Positions 19,643 to 63,055 of a stretch of 64,000 bases of DNA are shown here, one piece after another. The position numbers were made by a program, and so were the translations under genes. The notes beneath the pieces are model-generated. The model worked only from the letters and a program-made list of their open reading frames with translations, had not been told where the DNA came from and did not search any database. The stretch's first letter is position 1; each line of letters begins with the position of its first letter. This DNA is from Beggiatoa alba B18LD. GTDB lineage: Bacteria; Pseudomonadota; Gammaproteobacteria; Beggiatoales; Beggiatoaceae. The DNA lies in the NCBI RefSeq assembly GCF_000245015.1, contig NZ_JH600070.1, forward strand, positions 3,823,062 through 3,887,061, read 5' to 3'.

Positions 19643-20608
19643 ATGGACTTAAAAAATTATTTACAAAAATTTACCCATCTTGGCATTGATAAAAGTAAAC
19701 GGAAAACCATGGGCGGAGATGCCCCCCATAAACCACTGTTATTGCTCTCTATTATAGAACTGATAAACAAAGGACAAATTCAACAAAATCAGATAACACT
19801 CAGTCCTGAACTTATCGCCACCTTTAAAGAAAATTGGTTACTATTAGTGACAACAAAACATACCTGTCAATTGATATACCCTTTTTTTTACTTAAAAAAT
19901 GATGGTTTTTGGCAATTAATTCCGAAACCAGATTGCACACAAGAATTACAAACCGTTGTTCGTTTTAGTTTTAATAGCTTAAATGCAATAGTGGCGTATG
20001 CTGAGTTAGAGTCTGATTTATTTCAGCTTTTACTTAATCCAAATAGTCGCTATGAGTTACAGCATTGTTTATTAACACAATACTTTCCTGAAACCATGGC
20101 GTTATATCTGAACAAAGCACAGAATAAAAATAATTATTTAGAACAATTAGAAACAAAGATGATTCAAGAATCAGCCACTGAATATCGAATTGCGTCTGAA
20201 GCCTTAAAAGACGAAGAAGAGATTTTTTTACGTAGCCAGACTTTTAAAAAGCTGATTCCGCGTTTATACAACGATACTTGTTGTATCTCTGGCTGGCGGT
20301 TGGACAACCTATGGAATTTACAGATGATAGATGCTTGTCATATTATCCCTTTCAGTATTTCACATGATGATACGGTCAGTAATGGGATTGCTTTATGTCC
20401 GAACCTGCATCGAGCATTTGATAGAGGATTATTGACGATAGACAATGATTTTAAAGTAAAGATTTCGCCTTATTTGGCTGAAAACACCAATACAAATTAT
20501 GGTATTAAACAATTTGCCAATCAGGCGATTTTATTGCCAAGTGATGCTTTATTTTATCCCCGATTAGATAATTTAAAGTGGCATCAAGAAAATGTGTTTA
20601 GAGCATAA
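19643..20608 (+). CDS. HNH endonuclease, COG3440-like putative restriction enzyme
   Basis: 321 aa with an N-terminal APHKPLLLLSIIE-type domain and a C-terminal HNH motif CCISGW...ACHIIPFS...NGIALCPNLHRAFD. A strongly AT-rich single-gene insert. Confidence 0.65.
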   Translation: MDLKNYLQKFTHLGIDKSKRKTMGGDAPHKPLLLLSIIELINKGQIQQNQITLSPELIATFKENWLLLVTTKHTCQLIYPFFYLKNDGFWQLIPKPDCTQELQTVVRFSFNSLNAIVAYAELESDLFQLLLNPNSRYELQHCLLTQYFPETMALYLNKAQNKNNYLEQLETKMIQESATEYRIASEALKDEEEIFLRSQTFKKLIPRLYNDTCCISGWRLDNLWNLQMIDACHIIPFSISHDDTVSNGIALCPNLHRAFDRGLLTIDNDFKVKISPYLAENTNTNYGIKQFANQAILLPSDALFYPRLDNLKWHQENVFRA

Positions 20609-24729: not shown

Positions 24730-24832
24730 AGAAGAAACCCCCACCTAAAAATAGGATGGGGTTTCGTTTTTCATCGATAAAAACAATAGGGTTAACCTGA
24801 GTTAGGCAAGATTCTTTTAAAAAGATAACAGC

Positions 24833-24959
24833 TTATCTGAATCAGAATTCACAGGATTTTCAGGATTAGCAGGATTAAAAAGCGTGATCCACCTGACTTT
24901 TTGGTTTGAGGGTTTTAAATCCTGCTAATCCTGTGAATCCTGAAAATCCTGATTCAGAC
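24833..24959. repeat. MITE-like element copy 1
   Basis: TIRs tctgaatcagaattcacaggattttcaggattagcaggatt and aatcctgctaatcctgtgaatcctgaaaatcctgattcaga are built from NCAG(G/A)ATT units. The core is aaaaagcgtgatccac. Confidence 0.6.
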
Positions 24960-24971
24960 AATGTTTTAATC

Positions 24972-25112
24972 TTGTCTAATGAATCACGATGAAAAACAAG
25001 AGAGTAGTCTCTGCCAGTCCTTCAACCCTTTTCGCGTGTTCCGACAGACCTGCTAGGTTTTCAAAACCTAGCAGGTCTCTGTTTTATTTTATAAAACTCG
25101 CCGAACTCAGGT
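24972..25112. repeat. ~140-bp G repeat containing the 33-bp perfect hairpin palindrome (25046-25078) and ending in the 22-bp A module (25088-25109)
   Basis: Near-identical to 62784-62925. The palindrome is agacctgctaggtttt-c-aaaacctagcaggtct. Confidence 0.6.
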
Positions 25113-25194
25113 TAGTTTAGTATTTACTAAAAAAATAAAAATTAGTAGTCTAGTTGTATAGGTACGAATGTATTAGGTCGAAAAATACAATACA

Positions 25195-26583
25195 GTGGTT
25201 ACAATGAAAATTCCTGAAAGCCCGCCGCCGTTTGAAAAATTTTTTAATCAAAAAGATATGACGAAAATCATATCTATTATCACGAATGCAAAAGTAGGTC
25301 CTGAAGACATCAAAGGGCGTTATTTGCATTGGGAAAAACTCAAGCATCTGATACCCCCTGAGGGATTAACCAGCGAAGAATATTGGTTTGCCACTAAAAT
25401 CGCTAGGCAACATATCTCTAAAAAATTATCTTTTACAGATAAACACGGCAAGCCATTTTCATTTTGTGTGCCAGATAGTTTATATAAGGAGTTACATTGG
25501 TTAGATAAAAATGCAGCGGGCAGCATTATCATGAATCAGCCCATTACTAATCCACATACACGAGATACTTACTTAATAAGTTCTCTGATGGAGGAATCGA
25601 TTAGTTCAAGCCAGCTTGAAGGTGCATCAACCACTAGAAACGTTGCAAAGGAAATGTTGCGACAAGGGAGAGAACCTAAAGATCATAGTGAGAAAATGAT
25701 TTTTAATAATTATCAAGCGATGAGAGTTATTCGGGACTACAAAGAGGAAGATTTAACGCCCTCTTTAATTCTTCATCTGCATGAGGTACTGACAAAAGGG
25801 ACATTAGATAATCCAGAAAAAGCAGGCAAATTCAGAGATGAATCGGATGACATTCATGTGGTAGATGCCAGTAAAGTTGAAATACTGCATACACCACCCC
25901 GCGCCAACGAATTAGCAATGCGAATTCAGAAGCTTTGTGATTTTGCAAATAAGATACATGAAGACCCATTTATTCATCCAGTGATTCAGGCGATTATCCT
26001 ACATTTTATGATTGGTTATGATCATCCCTTTGTTGATGGAAATGGTAGAACTGCTAGAGCCTTATTTTATTGGGCAATGGCAAAACATGGTTATTGGTTA
26101 ATGGAGTTTGTATCGATTTCTAGCATTATTAAACAAGCACCTATTCAATATGGGAATGCCTATTTGCACACAGAAACAGATAATAATGATATGACTTACT
26201 TTCTAGTTCATCAGACTGGTGTGATTAGAAAAGGGATAAGTGCGTTACATGATTATTTGTCTAAGAAATCCTTAGAAATTGAAGAAGTAGAAAAATGGTT
26301 AGAAAATTCAGAGGCAAAAGGACAATTAAATCACAGACAATTGTCTTTATTAAAACATGCGTTAAAAAATCCAACCTTTATCTATCGTATCCAAGAACAT
26401 CAGGCATCCCATGCTATTAGTTACCAAACAGCAAGGACGGACTTATTAAAAATGTCAGATGATTTAAATTTACTGAGAAAAAGAAAATATGGTAACTCTT
26501 TCGTTTTTGTTGTTCCGCCAGATTTAAAAGATAAGTTGATTAATGGTAAAAGAAAGGGTAGTACTAAAGAAGCTGGGTTTTAG
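25195..26583 (+). CDS. fic: Fic-family protein (AMPylation-type Fic motif) with a C-terminal winged-helix-like domain
   Basis: Motif HPFVDGNGRTAR. 462 aa, strongly AT-rich, bracketed by inverted 22-bp A modules. Confidence 0.8.
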   Translation: MVTMKIPESPPPFEKFFNQKDMTKIISIITNAKVGPEDIKGRYLHWEKLKHLIPPEGLTSEEYWFATKIARQHISKKLSFTDKHGKPFSFCVPDSLYKELHWLDKNAAGSIIMNQPITNPHTRDTYLISSLMEESISSSQLEGASTTRNVAKEMLRQGREPKDHSEKMIFNNYQAMRVIRDYKEEDLTPSLILHLHEVLTKGTLDNPEKAGKFRDESDDIHVVDASKVEILHTPPRANELAMRIQKLCDFANKIHEDPFIHPVIQAIILHFMIGYDHPFVDGNGRTARALFYWAMAKHGYWLMEFVSISSIIKQAPIQYGNAYLHTETDNNDMTYFLVHQTGVIRKGISALHDYLSKKSLEIEEVEKWLENSEAKGQLNHRQLSLLKHALKNPTFIYRIQEHQASHAISYQTARTDLLKMSDDLNLLRKRKYGNSFVFVVPPDLKDKLINGKRKGSTKEAGF

Positions 26584-26590
26584 TCGTTAC

Positions 26591-26743
26591 TCTAACCTGA
26601 GTTCGGCGAGTTTCTATTAAAAAGACGACAGCTTGTCTGAATCAGAATTAACAGAATTTAAAACCCTTAAACCAAGAAATTAATGCGAATCACGCTTTTT
26701 AATCCTGCTAATTCTGAAAATTCTGTGAATTCTGATTCAGACA
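26591..26743. repeat. A module (inverted, 26591-26612), then the agacaa-cagc-ttgtct hairpin, then MITE-like copy 2 (26634-26743, opposite orientation)
   Basis: ctaacctgagttcggcgagttt is the reverse complement of 25088-25109. The MITE TIRs are gtctgaatcagaattaacagaatt and aattctgtgaattctgattcagac. Confidence 0.6.
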
Positions 26744-26809
26744 AAAAAAGACCTACTAGGTTTTCACTTAAATTTAAACCACTTTATGATACGTTTACTA
26801 TAGTTAAAC

Positions 26810-36486: not shown

Positions 36487-36640
36487 ATATAGTAACCGTA
36501 CTATAAAACGATGCGAAGGACTGGCAGTCCTCACAGGACTGCCAGCCCTAAATTTAAATCACTTTGTGGTACGTTTACTATAATTCTGCTAATTCTGAAA
36601 ATTCTGGTTCAGACAAGCTGTTGTCTCTTTAAAAGAATCT
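36487..36640. repeat. Composite repeat cluster: an ~85-bp hairpin-centred element (14-bp TIRs tatagtaaccgtac / gtacgtttactata around the 36520-36544 hairpin), a solo MITE TIR (36572-36606) and a B hairpin
   Basis: Related copies lie at 62927-63050 and 26770-26800. Confidence 0.5.
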
Positions 36641-36657
36641 CGCAGAACTGGGGTTAT

Positions 36658-48106: not shown

Positions 48107-48600
48107 AATTAACCTGAATTCGACGAGTTTTATAAAATAAAACAGAGACCTGCTAGGTTTTTAAAACCTAGCAGGTCTTTTTTTGTCTGAATCAGAATTC
48201 ACAGAATTAGCAGAATTAAAAACATAATTTTTTATTCTTTTAATTTTCTTGTCTTTTTAATTCTGAAAATTCTGATTCAGACAAGCTGTTGTCTTTTTAA
48301 AAGAAACTCGCCGAACTCAGGTTAATTAACCTGAATTCGACGAGTTTTATAAAATAAAACAGAGACCTGCTAGGTTTTAAAAACCTAGCAGGTCTGTCGG
48401 AACGTGCGAAAAGAATTCACCAGAGAAGATTAAAAGATTGTCTGAATCAGGATTTTCAGAATTAACAGAATTTAAAACCCTAAAACCAAAATTTAAGGTG
48501 AATCACGCTTTTTAATTCTGCTAATTCTGAAAATTCTGTGAATCCTGATTCAGACAAGCTGTTGTCTTTTTAAAAGAAACTCGCCGAATTCAGGTTAATT
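48104..48600. repeat. Dense composite repeat cluster
   Basis: A modules (48104-48125, the 48307-48344 palindrome, 48577-48600), D palindromes (48145-48177, 48363-48395), MITE-like copies (48184-48284, 48439-48556) and B hairpins. Confidence 0.65.
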
Positions 48601-53481: not shown

Positions 53482-53736
53482 AAGCTGGTCAATCTGATTC
53501 GCCTGTTCCAACAGACCTGCTAGGTTTTCAAAACCTAGCAGGTCTTTTTTTGTCTGAATCAGAATTAACAGAATTAGCAGAATTAAAAAGATTTATTCAT
53601 GTTAGTTTTTTGGTTTAAGGGGTTTAAATTCTGTTAATTCTGAAAATCCTGATTCAGACAATTTTTTCATCTTGTCTGGTCAATCTGATTCGCCTGTTCC
53701 GACAGACCTGTTAGGTTTTCAAAACCTAGCAGGTCT
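53482..53736. repeat. Repeat cluster: a ~55-bp segment plus D palindrome duplicated on both sides (53482-53545 and 53677-53736) of MITE-like copy 53551-53660
   Basis: ctggtcaatctgattcgcctgttcc(a/g)acagacctg(c/t)taggttttcaaaacctagcaggtct occurs twice. The D palindrome followed by a T-run probably terminates aceA. Confidence 0.6.
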
Positions 53737-53874
53737 CTGTTTTATTTTATAAAACTCGCAAAGCTGGGGTTATTTAGGTACAATTTTTTATTTCATTGGT
53801 TCTGCTTTTTAAACGTCATTGACAATTAATTATTTAATATCAATTGTATCGTTGTGCTGAGGGTTATTTGAATT

Positions 53875-57517: not shown

Positions 57518-57931
57518 TTATATTTTTGATGCACCGGGTTTTTTGGTGTTGTATTCCTCATGAGAGAGTACAACAACAGGGGTTAAGCCTTCTTTTTCGT
57601 CCTTAAATAAGATGCGGTAATCATTATCAATAGGCACGGAAACGATGTGCCTATCGTAATTCATCCGTTTACCGTTAAAGACTTGATACGCTTGCCCTTC
57701 TTTAATGGCAGCGAGAATAGAACGGGCTTTAATAACTAAACTTTTATGTGGCAGTTTTCGTAAGTCAACAGCATCTGCTTTAAATTGTTGTTCCCACACC
57801 TGTTTTTCACGTTTATTAGTGTCTTGATGATGTTGTTCTACTGAAGATTGTTGACATTTATGACAATACTGCCCTAACCCTTTATGTCCACATGGAAATG
57901 TCTTTTTTGCCATATTAATCATGTACTCCAT
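57518..57931 (-). CDS. Hypothetical protein with an N-terminal Cys/His zinc-ribbon-like motif and a RelE/ParE-like C-terminal segment (weak)
   Basis: CGHKGLGQYCHKCQ near the N-terminus. The C-terminal DYRILFKDEKEGLTPVVVLSHEEY resembles RelE/ParE toxins. Confidence 0.3.
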   Translation of the reverse strand: MEYMINMAKKTFPCGHKGLGQYCHKCQQSSVEQHHQDTNKREKQVWEQQFKADAVDLRKLPHKSLVIKARSILAAIKEGQAYQVFNGKRMNYDRHIVSVPIDNDYRILFKDEKEGLTPVVVLSHEEYNTKKPGASKI

Positions 57932-62622: not shown

Positions 62623-62625
62623 ATT

Positions 62626-63055
62626 AACCTGAGTTCGACGATTTTCTTTTAAAAAGACAACAGCTTGTCTGAATCAGAATTCACAGAATTAACAGAATTA
62701 AAAAGCGTGATTCACATTAATTTCTTGGTTTTAACTTGAGTTCGACGAGTTTCTTTTAAAAAAGACAACAGCTTGTCTGAATCTTATCTGGTGAATCCCG
62801 ATGAAAAACAAGAGAATAATCTCTGCCAGTCCTTCAACCCTTTTCGCGTGTTCCGACAGACCTGCTAGGTTTTAAAAACCTAGCAGGTCTCTGTTTTATT
62901 TTATAAAACTCGCCGAACTTAGGTTAAATTATAGTAAACGCACTATAAAACGGTACGAAGGACTGGCAGTCCTGTGAGGACTGCTAGTCCTAAAAAGTAG
63001 GGTGAATGACGCTTTTAAATTCTGCTAATCCTGATTCAGACAATTTAGCACGACC
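62626..63055. repeat. Composite repeat cluster
   Basis: A-like modules (62626, 62740, 62903), a truncated MITE (62666-62716), the second G repeat copy (62784-62925) with its D palindrome (62858-62890), the hairpin-centred element (62927-63000) and a solo MITE TIR (63020-63050). Confidence 0.6.

What the first reader, a model, noticed from the sequence alone, without database searches (positions are those of the whole stretch)
25088..26612. fic gene sits exactly where a palindromic repeat is split: possible cassette-like insertion into a hairpin
The 22-bp A module aaactcgccgaactcaggttag (25088-25109) and its reverse complement ctaacctgagttcggcgagttt (26591-26612) bracket a 1.48-kb AT-rich segment carrying only a fic gene (HPFVDGNGRTAR). 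Elsewhere in the window (48307-48344) the same two arms are contiguous, forming ctcgccgaactcaggttaa|ttaacctgaattcgacgag. That is the configuration expected if the fic segment inserted at the hairpin tip, or if the repeat family mobilises flanked cargo. Fic proteins are frequent toxin or defence cargo.
Basis: seen in the sequence. Interest (0 to 1): 0.65.

Follow-up and report, generated by a model that had tools for sequence, protein, structure and literature searches.

The report
fic gene between two IS982-type MITEs
The "split palindrome" around this fic gene is the facing ends of two separate miniature transposons (MITEs) that carry the terminal repeats of an IS982-family insertion sequence, so this is an ordinary accessory defence-type gene in transposon-littered intergenic DNA and not a gene inserted into a hairpin.

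Summary
The repeat is real: AAACTCGCCGAACTCAGGTTAG at 25094-25115 and its exact reverse complement at 26592-26613. The arms bracket a 1,476-bp, 35% GC segment that holds only fic.

The arm is not half of a hairpin unit. It is the outward-facing terminal inverted repeat of an IS982-family transposon clade. Complete 1.05-1.07-kb elements with an IS982 transposase carry the same 21-nt ends in Desulfococcaceae genomes.

In this window (Beggiatoa alba B18LD) the arms bound 195-322-bp non-coding MITEs. The contiguous palindrome at 48304-48347 is the junction of two tandem MITEs that share a 6-bp target duplication (TAATTA). Similar junctions occur for this clade in metagenomes.

fic lies outside both flanking MITEs. 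The right MITE is truncated, and no RAYT or other transposase was found among the 20 window ORFs tested. The gene is SoFic-like and auto-inhibited. It is absent at this site in B. leptomitoformis, where synteny ends at xseB. A 90%-identical copy sits next to rpmE in an uncultured relative.

Capture of fic between the ends of a pre-existing MITE dimer is not excluded (about 0.15). This is a new member of a known kind, of low to moderate interest.

The parts
24793..25114 (.). Left MITE ('long' type): degenerate A' arm 24793-24813, long B/C hairpin about 24826-24968, module M, hairpin H 25046-25078, consensus A arm 25094-25114 (plus G at 25115).
   Evidence: Module map. Full-length alignment to the reverse complement of unit 48327-48597 and to 62732-62926. 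No TSD beyond TA: left flank ...TAGGGTTA, right flank TAGTTTAG.... H followed by a T-run scores as terminator-like.
25116..26591 (+). fic unit, 1,476 bp, GC 0.351. 25116-26556 is 90.4% identical in DNA to a copy in an uncultured relative (L001 1880-3323). 26557-26591 is a tail specific to B. alba.
   Evidence: blastn. The tail is unique in the window and is not similar to L001's tail or to the arm. Composition.
25204..26583 (+). fic CDS (459 aa from ATG; alternative GTG start at 25195). It is a class II (auto-inhibited) Fic/SoFic-like protein with HPFVDGNGRTAR at residue 274 and SSQLEG at residue 135.
   Evidence: Pfam Fic 68.6 bits. PADLOC SoFic 129 bits. NCBIfam SoFic equivalog scores only 48.6 against a cutoff of 550. 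Motifs. The family is widespread at 65-77% identity in Gammaproteobacteria.
25116..25131 (.). 16-bp palindrome TTTAGTA-tt-TACTAAA directly abutting the left arm. It looks like an operator-type site of the fic unit.
   Evidence: Conserved in L001 as TTTGGTATTTACTAAA. Half-site enrichment: 3 in 120 nt against 0.036 expected. A palindrome built from the same half-site lies upstream of a 66%-identical fic in Albibeggiatoa.
26579..26595 (.). Degenerate second copy of the palindrome (TTTAGTC-gt-TACTcTAA), overlapping the terminus of the right arm. Together with 25116-25128 it forms an 11/13 direct repeat just inside both arms.
   Evidence: (23 of 5,000 shuffles reach 11/13; 0 of 5,000 when both copies must abut the arms).
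26593..26766 (.). Right MITE ('short' type, same orientation as the left one): consensus A' arm 26593-26613 (plus C at 26592), B/C hairpin 26633-26744, left half of hairpin H 26749-26766. The distal half of H and the distal A arm are missing.
   Evidence: Direct repeats D1 and D2 with the left MITE at 84-87% identity. Module map. Alignment to the reverse complement of unit 48110-48324.
26767..26802 (.). Right half of an unrelated 95-bp MITE ('K'), fused to the truncated right MITE.
   Evidence: Matches the 3' half of the full K copy at 36488-36582.
48110..48597 (.). Tandem MITE dimer: unit 1 at 48110-48324 and unit 2 at 48327-48597, each flanked by TAATTA.
62625..62926 (.). Composite or nested MITE with a 7-bp TSD (TAAATTA) and an internal extra A' arm at 62732. 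It is followed by a partial K element starting at 62930.
53513..53772 (.). H and B/C modules without intact arms: H at 53513-53545 and 53704-53736, and a degenerate A arm at 53752-53772 (5 mismatches).
36488..36656 (.). Full K MITE (36488-36582), followed by the right half of a B hairpin and a degenerate A arm at 36636-36656 (4 mismatches).

Best explanation
**What it is.** The 'A module' is the roughly 21-bp terminal inverted repeat of a clade of IS982-family insertion sequences. The element proper runs ACCTGAGTTCGRCGAGTTT ... AAACTCGYCGAACTCAGGT and is flanked by TA-rich target duplications. In Beggiatoa alba these ends bound 195-322-bp non-coding MITEs built from hairpin modules (A'-H-[M]-B/C-A).

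**How the units move (inferred).** A DDE transposase of IS982 type supplied in trans would move them into TA(N)nTA targets and make 5-9-bp duplications. Each insertion regenerates the target, so new copies often land beside old ones. That gives end-to-end junctions such as 48304-48347, where TAATTA is shared.

**Where fic sits.** fic lies between two separate MITEs of different subtype in the same orientation. Their inner ends happen to face it, and fic lies outside both elements.

**What fic is.** It is a self-contained SoFic-like, class II auto-inhibited AMPylase gene with its own palindromic operator-like sites. It is an accessory gene at a synteny breakpoint.

**Shown:**
- the arms are IS982-type termini;
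- the units have MITE architecture and target duplications;
- the contiguous palindrome is a tandem junction;
- fic is outside the elements;
- fic is absent at this site in B. leptomitoformis and sits in a different context in a relative.

**Inferred:**
- mobilisation in trans;
- the two flanking MITEs arrived independently and/or that recombination between MITE copies produced the present xseB-fic adjacency.
For: - **Arm orientation:** in 81 arms from 59 sources, the 5' side falls into a few conserved families and the 3' side is unique.
- **Autonomous elements:** L054 2-1075 and L014 6129-7176 are complete elements bounded by the arms. L054's ORF is a 308-aa IS982 transposase (NF033520, 269 bits against a cutoff of 130; PF13612); L014's ORF is its 60.5%-identical relative by tblastn. 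L058 adds a third, 68%-identical transposase with one arm.
- **Family features:** size, AC ends, IR length and variable direct repeats match the published description: 845-1282 bp, IR 11-32 bp, DR 2-10 bp (PMC7335449).
- **Target duplications:** TSDs of 5-9 bp flank 10 of 23 arm pairs, including both units at 48110-48597 (TAATTA), and 62625-62926 (TAAATTA).
- **Tandem junctions in metagenomes:** L080 is IS+IS with TATTTA, L085 is MITE+IS with TAATTA, and L151 and L157 are MITE+MITE with TAATA.
- **Flanking MITEs:** they align over their whole length with other units. They are of different subtype, and the right one is truncated and fused to another MITE.
- **B. leptomitoformis:** homology ends at the xseB stop codon, with no fic and no arms.
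- **Relative L001:** fic is 90.4% identical in DNA but sits next to rpmE, with no arm upstream.
- **13-mer repeat:** it is two copies of a palindromic site whose half-site also sits upstream of a distant fic homolog. It is not in the TSD register.
- **Precedent:** IS982-derived MITEs are published (PMC9769881), as are MITE-rich Beggiatoaceae genomes (PMC4853749).
Against: - **No autonomous partner shown:** no IS982 transposase was found in the window, and none from Beggiatoa appears among the top 120 homologs. An autonomous partner in B. alba is therefore not shown.
- **No clean TSD:** the left MITE has none, so it is not a simple undisturbed insertion.
- **Coincidences left unexplained by independent insertion:**
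  - the same long+short order and orientation as the dimer at 48110-48597, about 1 in 8;
  - the extra complementary G/C next to the arms, about 1 in 4;
  - both copies of the fic-unit palindrome directly abutting the arms;
  - the left homology boundary with L001 falling on the first base after the arm.
Confidence: 0.65

Rival explanations
1. Capture between the ends of a pre-existing MITE dimer, a refined version of the reader's model. A tandem long+short MITE pair sat downstream of xseB with abutted ends (CAGGT-TAGCTA-ACCTG). A small fic-bearing DNA, possibly circular, was then integrated at that junction. This could have happened by transposase action on the abutted ends, as for IS30- or IS21-type (IS)2 junctions (my own knowledge), or by breakage at the palindrome centre.
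For: - The subunit order and orientation match the dimer at 48110-48597.
- Removing 25116-26591 leaves the spacer TAGCTA, which has the TA-NN-TA form and the length of TAATTA.
- Homology with L001 starts exactly at the arm.
- The repeated 13-mer abuts both arms.
- Abutted ends are common for this clade.
- The IS982 transposition pathway is unknown (PMC7335449).
Against: - No empty site was found.
- The 13-mer repeat is not in the register of the family's TSDs, is longer than the 2-10 bp known, and is better explained as an operator-like palindrome of the fic unit.
- The right boundary of homology lies 35 bp short of the arm.
- The B-hairpin loop of the right MITE is of a different type from unit 1 of the dimer.
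- No transposase was found, and there is no precedent for such capture by IS982 elements.
Confidence: 0.15
2. MITE-fic-MITE is, or was, a composite or translocatable unit. Two directly repeated MITEs would mobilise the gene between them. This could happen through the outer ends, as in a composite transposon. It could also happen by excision of a MITE+fic circle and its re-integration by homologous recombination into a resident MITE.
For: - The two MITEs are direct repeats at 84-87% identity.
- The left MITE lacks its own TSD, as expected for a recombinant copy.
- fic is in a different context in a relative, and a MITE-family hairpin (H) follows it there too.
Against: - The right MITE lacks its outer end and the left outer arm is degenerate, so the unit is not mobile now.
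- No TSD flanks the whole structure.
- L001 has no arm on either side of fic.
- The two MITEs are of different subtypes.
Confidence: 0.1
3. REP/REPIN-like hairpin family mobilised by a RAYT (IS200-like Y1 transposase), with fic inserted at the hairpin tip.
For: The arms form a near-perfect palindrome when contiguous. The modules are hairpin-rich and intergenic.
Against: - The arms are the ends of IS982 DDE transposons.
- The units have TSDs, which single-strand Y1 transposition does not make (the statement about Y1 transposition is my own knowledge of IS200/IS605).
- No Y1 transposase was found among 20 ORFs tested.
Confidence: 0.02

Closest known systems
IS982-family insertion sequences and their MITE derivatives (for example ISCca4 and MITECca01 in Cardinium, PMC9769881; family review PMC7335449)
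   Same: - The terminal inverted repeats are shared with complete IS982 elements.
- The ends are 5'-AC.
- Target duplications are variable, 5-9 bp here.
- The units are 195-322 bp, non-coding and multi-copy.
- They are intergenic.
   Different: - The internal sequence is a mosaic of hairpin modules (H, M, B/C) that also occur without arms. It is not an internal deletion of the IS.
- The full-length elements with these ends were found in Desulfococcaceae, a different phylum, and not in Beggiatoa.
- The published IR consensus AC(N)6T(N)5TT is only partly matched: AC and T9 fit, and the TT is displaced by 2 nt.
MITE-rich genomes of large sulfur bacteria (Ca. Thiomargarita nelsonii, PMC4853749)
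   Same: The same bacterial family (Beggiatoaceae). The MITEs are abundant, nested, hairpin-forming and TA-ended, and lie in intergenic DNA.
   Different: That paper found no parental IS family for its MITEs. Here a parental family (IS982) is identified from the ends. No sequence identity between the two sets of MITEs was tested.
Tandem IS dimers with abutted inverted repeats ((IS)2 junctions of IS30, IS21 and IS911-type elements; my own knowledge)
   Same: Two element ends face each other across a spacer of a few bp (48304-48347, and L080, L085, L151, L157).
   Different: Here the spacer equals the flanking TSD (TAATTA three times). This is what sequential insertion into the same target gives. 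No evidence was obtained that the junction is reactive.
SoFic single-gene defence system / class II Fic AMPylases
   Same: PADLOC SoFic model match over most of the profile. The HxFx(D/E)GNGRxxR active site is present, as is the N-terminal (S/T)xxxE(G/N) inhibitory motif. It is a stand-alone gene whose location varies between genomes.
   Different: The protein is about 90 aa longer than SoFic. It scores far below NCBIfam's SoFic equivalog cutoff (48.6 against 550). No functional data exist.

Membership tests
IS982-derived MITE | Terminal inverted repeats shared with an IS982-family insertion sequence | tested here: met
   The window arms differ by 0-3 nt from the ends of L054 (1,074 bp) and L014 (1,048 bp). 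L054's ORF is an IS982 transposase (NF033520, 269 bits against a cutoff of 130); L014's ORF is 60.5% identical to it by tblastn.
IS982-derived MITE | 5'-AC ends and IR length of 11-32 bp (PMC7335449) | tested here: met
   In the register that gives TSDs, the units start ACCTGAG... and end ...CTCAGGT. The IR is about 19 bp.
IS982-derived MITE | Target-site duplications of variable length (2-10 bp) | tested here: met
   TAATTA twice and TAAATTA in the window. TSDs of 5-9 bp flank 8 of 19 pairs in Desulfococcaceae loci. This is not met for the MITE left of fic, which shares only TA.
IS982-derived MITE | Small, non-coding, multi-copy | tested here: met
   The units are 195-322 bp. No IS982-like coding sequence was found in the window by tblastn. 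There are 12 arms in 64 kb.
IS982-derived MITE | A cognate autonomous IS982 element in the same genome | not testable with these tools
   - None is present in the window.
- No Beggiatoa-named protein appears in the top 120 homologs.
- The B. alba genome outside the window could not be read.
REP/REPIN with RAYT | Associated Y1 (IS200-like) RAYT transposase, and no target duplication | tested here: not met
   No Y1 transposase was found among 20 window ORFs. TSDs are present. The cognate enzyme is a DDE transposase.
Composite transposon | Two intact flanking elements with functional outer ends, and a TSD around the whole structure | tested here: not met
   The right MITE lacks its distal arm and is fused to K. 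The left outer arm has 3 mismatches. No flanking TSD can be formed.
Integron gene cassette | An attC recombination site with RYYYAAC and GTTRRRY cores at the cassette boundary, plus an IntI integrase | tested here: not met
   - Read directly from the sequence, the boundaries are G|TTTAGT and ACT|CTAAC, which do not fit the cores.
- The 35-nt tail has no significant fold (z = +1.0).
- No integrase was found among the ORFs scanned. Not all ORFs were scanned.
Fic / SoFic-type protein | Fic domain with the HxFx(D/E)GNGRxxR motif | tested here: met
   Pfam PF02661 scores 68.6 bits against a cutoff of 24. HPFVDGNGRTAR is at residue 274.
Fic / SoFic-type protein | Match to SoFic models | tested here: inconclusive
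   PADLOC SoFic scores 129 bits and covers profile positions 43-348 of 361. NCBIfam's SoFic equivalog scores 48.6 bits against a cutoff of 550. Solved SoFic chains match only the core.
Fic / SoFic-type protein | Anti-phage or toxin activity | not testable with these tools
The SSQLEG inhibitory motif at residue 135 predicts an auto-inhibited class II enzyme that needs no separate antitoxin. The class assignment rests on my own knowledge of the Fic classes.

The most novel reading that the evidence does not exclude
The abutted ends of a tandem IS982-type MITE dimer act as a gene-capture site. A small, possibly circular, fic-bearing DNA was integrated exactly at the palindromic junction (CAGGT-TAG|CTA-ACCTG) downstream of xseB. 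On this reading, MITE dimers in Beggiatoa can recruit defence genes without carrying them as cargo.
Probability: 0.12. Interest if true: 0.6.

Novelty: new member of a known kind. Interest (0 to 1): 0.27.

Why it matters
- **For this finding.** It turns an apparently exotic 'gene in a split hairpin' into a recognisable situation. A previously undescribed IS982-derived MITE family has colonised intergenic DNA of Beggiatoa alba, and one accessory SoFic-like gene lies between two copies.
- **For annotation.** The arms, the hairpin modules and the tandem junctions should not be read as REPs, terminators or cassette sites.
- **For Beggiatoaceae MITEs.** A parental IS family is identified here. An earlier study of Thiomargarita MITEs found no parental family.
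- **Across phyla.** The same 21-nt ends occur in Beggiatoa, in Desulfococcaceae and in one cyanobacterial contig. This is a small piece of evidence for transposon exchange among mat-forming bacteria.
- **If the minority reading is right.** Capture at dimer junctions would be a new route for gene acquisition.

Tried and rejected
- **Exact-protein look-ups.** Look-ups for fic (both start codons), XseB and B. alba FolP found nothing on record. The source genome is not readable outside the window.
- **Empty-site search.**
  - The only close genome, B. leptomitoformis, has a synteny break at xseB and no arms, so it neither shows nor excludes an empty site.
  - The FolP search found no closer relative: after 83% the next hit is 68%.
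- **Metagenome scan.** A scan with the B. alba-specific subterminal MITE sequence gave 0 hits.
- **Decayed arm downstream of fic in L001.** Rejected: 1,135 of 2,000 shuffles do as well.
- **Homology between the 3' tails of the two fic copies.** Rejected.
- **Homology between DNA left of the left MITE and L001's fic upstream region.** Not significant: 183 of 2,000 shuffles.
- **13-mer repeat extending into the arm (duplicated junction).** Rejected: 2,396 of 5,000 shuffles.
- **13-mer as the terminus of the K MITE.** Rejected.
- **13-mer as a TSD.** Rejected, because it is out of register with every verified TSD and is explained by a palindromic half-site motif.
- **Known RNA families.** None in the window.
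- **IS982 transposase in the window.** None.
- **RAYT or other transposases among 20 ORFs.** None.
Full report
**1. Observation**

The 22-nt sequence AAACTCGCCGAACTCAGGTTAG lies at 25094-25115. Its exact reverse complement lies at 26592-26613. Nine copies with up to 3 mismatches occur in the window, against none in 100 shuffles.

The enclosed 1,476 bp (25116-26591) has GC 0.351. The window average is 0.41 and long ORFs average 0.424 +/- 0.049, so the segment is AT-rich but not an extreme outlier. It holds a single real gene, fic (25204-26583). The gene scores 68.6 bits against Pfam Fic and has HPFVDGNGRTAR at residue 274.

**2. What the arms are**

Mapping short modules across the window shows that every arm is one end of a larger unit. 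A unit consists of:
- A' (TAACCTGARTTCGRCGAGTTT);
- hairpin H (AGACCTGCTAGGTTTT.AAAACCTAGCAGGTCT);
- an optional module M;
- a long hairpin B/C built of AATYCTG heptamers;
- A.

The units in the window are:

| Coordinates | Description |
|---|---|
| 24793-25114 | 322 bp, left of fic |
| 26593-26766 | truncated, right of fic |
| 48110-48324 | tandem unit 1 |
| 48327-48597 | tandem unit 2 |
| 62625-62926 | nested |
| 36636-36656 and 53752-53772 | degenerate arms |

A scan of 185,579 species genomes with the arm returned 54 loci. Almost all came from Desulfococcaceae or 'Deltaproteobacteria' assemblies, plus one cyanobacterial contig. In all 81 arms from these loci and the window, the DNA 5' of the arm falls into a few conserved families. 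The DNA beyond ...GGTTA is unique. The arm is therefore an outward-facing terminus.

Three loci tie the arm to a transposase:
- L054 2-1075 is a complete 1,074-bp element bounded by the arms. It encodes a 308-aa protein that matches NCBIfam's IS982 transposase model at 269 bits (cutoff 130) and Pfam DDE_Tnp_1_3.
- L014 6129-7176 is a second complete element.
- L058 has one arm plus a transposase.

The L014 and L058 transposases are 60.5% and 68% identical to the L054 protein, so the arm is conserved across a clade.

The family description in PMC7335449 fits: 845-1282 bp, IRs of 11-32 bp, 5'-AC ends and direct repeats of 2-10 bp. In the register ACCTG...CAGGT, 10 of 23 arm pairs have duplications of 5-9 bp.

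The window units are therefore MITEs with IS982-type ends. Published precedents are an IS982-derived MITE in Cardinium (PMC9769881) and MITE-rich Beggiatoaceae genomes (PMC4853749).

**3. The contiguous palindrome**

At 48110-48597 the arrangement is TAATTA-unit 1-TAATTA-unit 2-TAATTA. This is what two successive insertions into the same 6-bp target would produce.

A metagenome scan for abutted ends found the same kind of junction elsewhere:
- two IS982 copies in L080, spacer TATTTA;
- a MITE next to an IS in L085, spacer TAATTA;
- MITE pairs in L151 and L157, spacer TAATA.

The palindrome is a by-product of tandem insertion. It is not a hairpin unit that could be split.

**4. The fic locus**

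*Position of fic.* fic lies outside both flanking MITEs.

*The two MITEs.* They are in the same orientation and are 84-87% identical, but they are of different subtypes. The left one has module M. The right one lacks it, ends inside hairpin H, and is fused to half of an unrelated 95-bp MITE, K. The left MITE has no target duplication beyond TA.

*Transposases in the window.* There is no IS982 transposase. There is no RAYT or other transposase among 20 ORFs tested.

*Source organism.* The window is from Beggiatoa alba B18LD, because its FolP is 100% identical.

*B. leptomitoformis.* The order glgB-rsmA-folP-xseB is conserved. Homology stops exactly at the xseB stop codon (window 24729), and an ABC transporter follows. 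There is no fic and there are no arms.

*Closest fic copy.* It is 94% identical in protein and 90.4% in DNA over 1,445 aligned columns. It comes from an uncultured organism (Logan ERR7015337/8) and lies next to rpmE. It has no arm upstream, and an H-type hairpin lies downstream where the contig ends.

*Homology boundaries.* Homology spans window 25116-26556. It starts on the first base after the left arm and ends 35 bp before the right arm. fic is therefore a discrete accessory unit at a synteny breakpoint, with a MITE end marking one boundary.

**5. The gene**

- The protein matches PADLOC's single-gene defence model SoFic: 129 bits over most of the profile.
- It has the canonical active-site motif and an N-terminal SSQLEG inhibitory motif.
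- By my own knowledge of the Fic classes, this makes it a class II auto-inhibited enzyme that needs no antitoxin.
- It is not an NCBIfam SoFic equivalog: 48.6 bits against a cutoff of 550.
- Its family of about 453-aa proteins is widespread at 65-77% identity in Gammaproteobacteria.

**6. A feature that needed explaining**

An 11/13 direct repeat, TTTAGTATTTACT and TTTAGTCGTTACT, lies directly inside both arms. It is unlikely to be chance:
- 23 of 5,000 shuffles reach 11/13 anywhere in the flanks;
- 0 of 5,000 do so when both copies must abut the arms, which is a post-hoc test.

It is not a target duplication. It is out of register with every verified duplication and is longer than the family's range.

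The left copy is part of a 16-bp palindrome, TTTAGTA-tt-TACTAAA, which is conserved in L001. The right copy is a degenerate version of the same palindrome. The half-site occurs 3 times in 120 nt against 0.036 expected. A 66%-identical fic in Albibeggiatoa has a palindrome of the same half-site just before its start codon.

I read these as operator-like sites that belong to the fic unit. Why both abut MITE ends remains unexplained.

**7. Weighing the models**

*Independent MITE insertion, with or without later recombination between MITE copies.* This accounts for:
- the orientation of the arms;
- the truncation of the right MITE;
- the different subtypes;
- the missing duplication at the left MITE;
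- the synteny break.

It leaves several coincidences unexplained:
- the same long+short order as the dimer at 48110-48597, about 1 in 8;
- the complementary G/C next to the arms, about 1 in 4;
- the palindromes abutting the arms.

*Capture at a dimer junction.* Removing the fic unit leaves CAGGT-TAGCTA-ACCTG. That spacer has the form and length of TAATTA, so capture at a dimer junction is not excluded. There is no empty site, no transposase, no in-register duplication and no precedent. I give it about 0.15.

*Other models.* I give a composite or translocatable-unit history about 0.1. I give a REP/RAYT system about 0.02.

**8. Verdict**

The repeat family is mobile and fic is an accessory unit, but fic is not a gene inserted into a hairpin and no RAYT system is involved.
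- This is a new MITE family of a known kind (IS982-derived) flanking an ordinary SoFic-like gene.
- Interest is low to moderate.

Noticed in passing
window 36488-36582 (full copy); partial copies at 26767-26802 and 62930 to about 62995: A second, unrelated 95-bp MITE family ('K') with 14-bp terminal inverted repeats TATAGTAAMCGTAC and a central GGACTGGCAGTCC hairpin. It is found nested in or fused to the IS982-type MITEs.
   Followed up: partly
window 53513-53545, 53704-53736, 25046-25078, 48146-48178, 48363-48395, 62858-62890; L001 3350-3379: Hairpin H (AGACCTGCTAGGTTTT.AAAACCTAGCAGGTCT) also occurs without A arms and in the uncultured relative. With its T-run it scores as an intrinsic terminator. 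It may be an independent module that MITEs have picked up, or one that serves as a terminator between genes.
   Followed up: partly
L060-L176, about 95 loci, for example L088 9308-9331: In GC-rich soil-metagenome contigs there is a 24-nt perfect hairpin, CGAACTCAGGT-WW-ACCTGAGTTCG. It is made of the same terminal 11 nt as the A arm, joined end to end. It has conserved flanks on both sides, is followed by a second hairpin (GGCCGAAGTCGG...), and has no IS982 transposase nearby. It occurs once per locus and its nature is unknown.
   Followed up: partly
window 25116-25131, 25143-25149, 26562-26568, 26579-26595; L003 9963-9987: TTAGTA/TACTAA half-sites form palindromes at both ends of the fic unit and upstream of a distant fic homolog. 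They may be an operator for the C-terminal DNA-binding region of this Fic family.
   Followed up: partly
L005 7363-7383 (Phormidesmis priestleyi ULC007): A single copy of the A arm (1 mismatch to the consensus) in a cyanobacterial genome, with no IS982-like coding sequence in the 8-kb locus. This is either a solo end or a MITE, and it hints at spread of this element clade across phyla.
   Followed up: no
window 19643-20608: A low-GC (0.337) ORF with an HNH_2 endonuclease domain sits on the other side of glgB. B. leptomitoformis has AAA_15/AAA_21 ATPase genes at the equivalent place, so the conserved glgB-rsmA-folP-xseB block is flanked by variable, defence-like genes on both sides.
   Followed up: no
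window 26557: Relative to the L001 copy, B. alba has two extra G bases just before the ancestral TAG stop. This puts the stop out of frame and extends the Fic ORF by 9 codons (GSTKEAGF*), to within 8 bp of the right arm.
   Followed up: yes
window 57521-57931 (-): A 137-aa ORF with a ParE-like toxin domain and a DUF7682 zinc-binding domain. No partner gene was examined.
   Followed up: no
L012 5504-5698 versus L027 6786-6970: The same MITE insertion in two related Desulfococcaceae MAGs has a 9-bp duplication (TACCCCATA) in one and only TA in the other. The flank therefore differs by 7 bp between the genomes.
   Followed up: no
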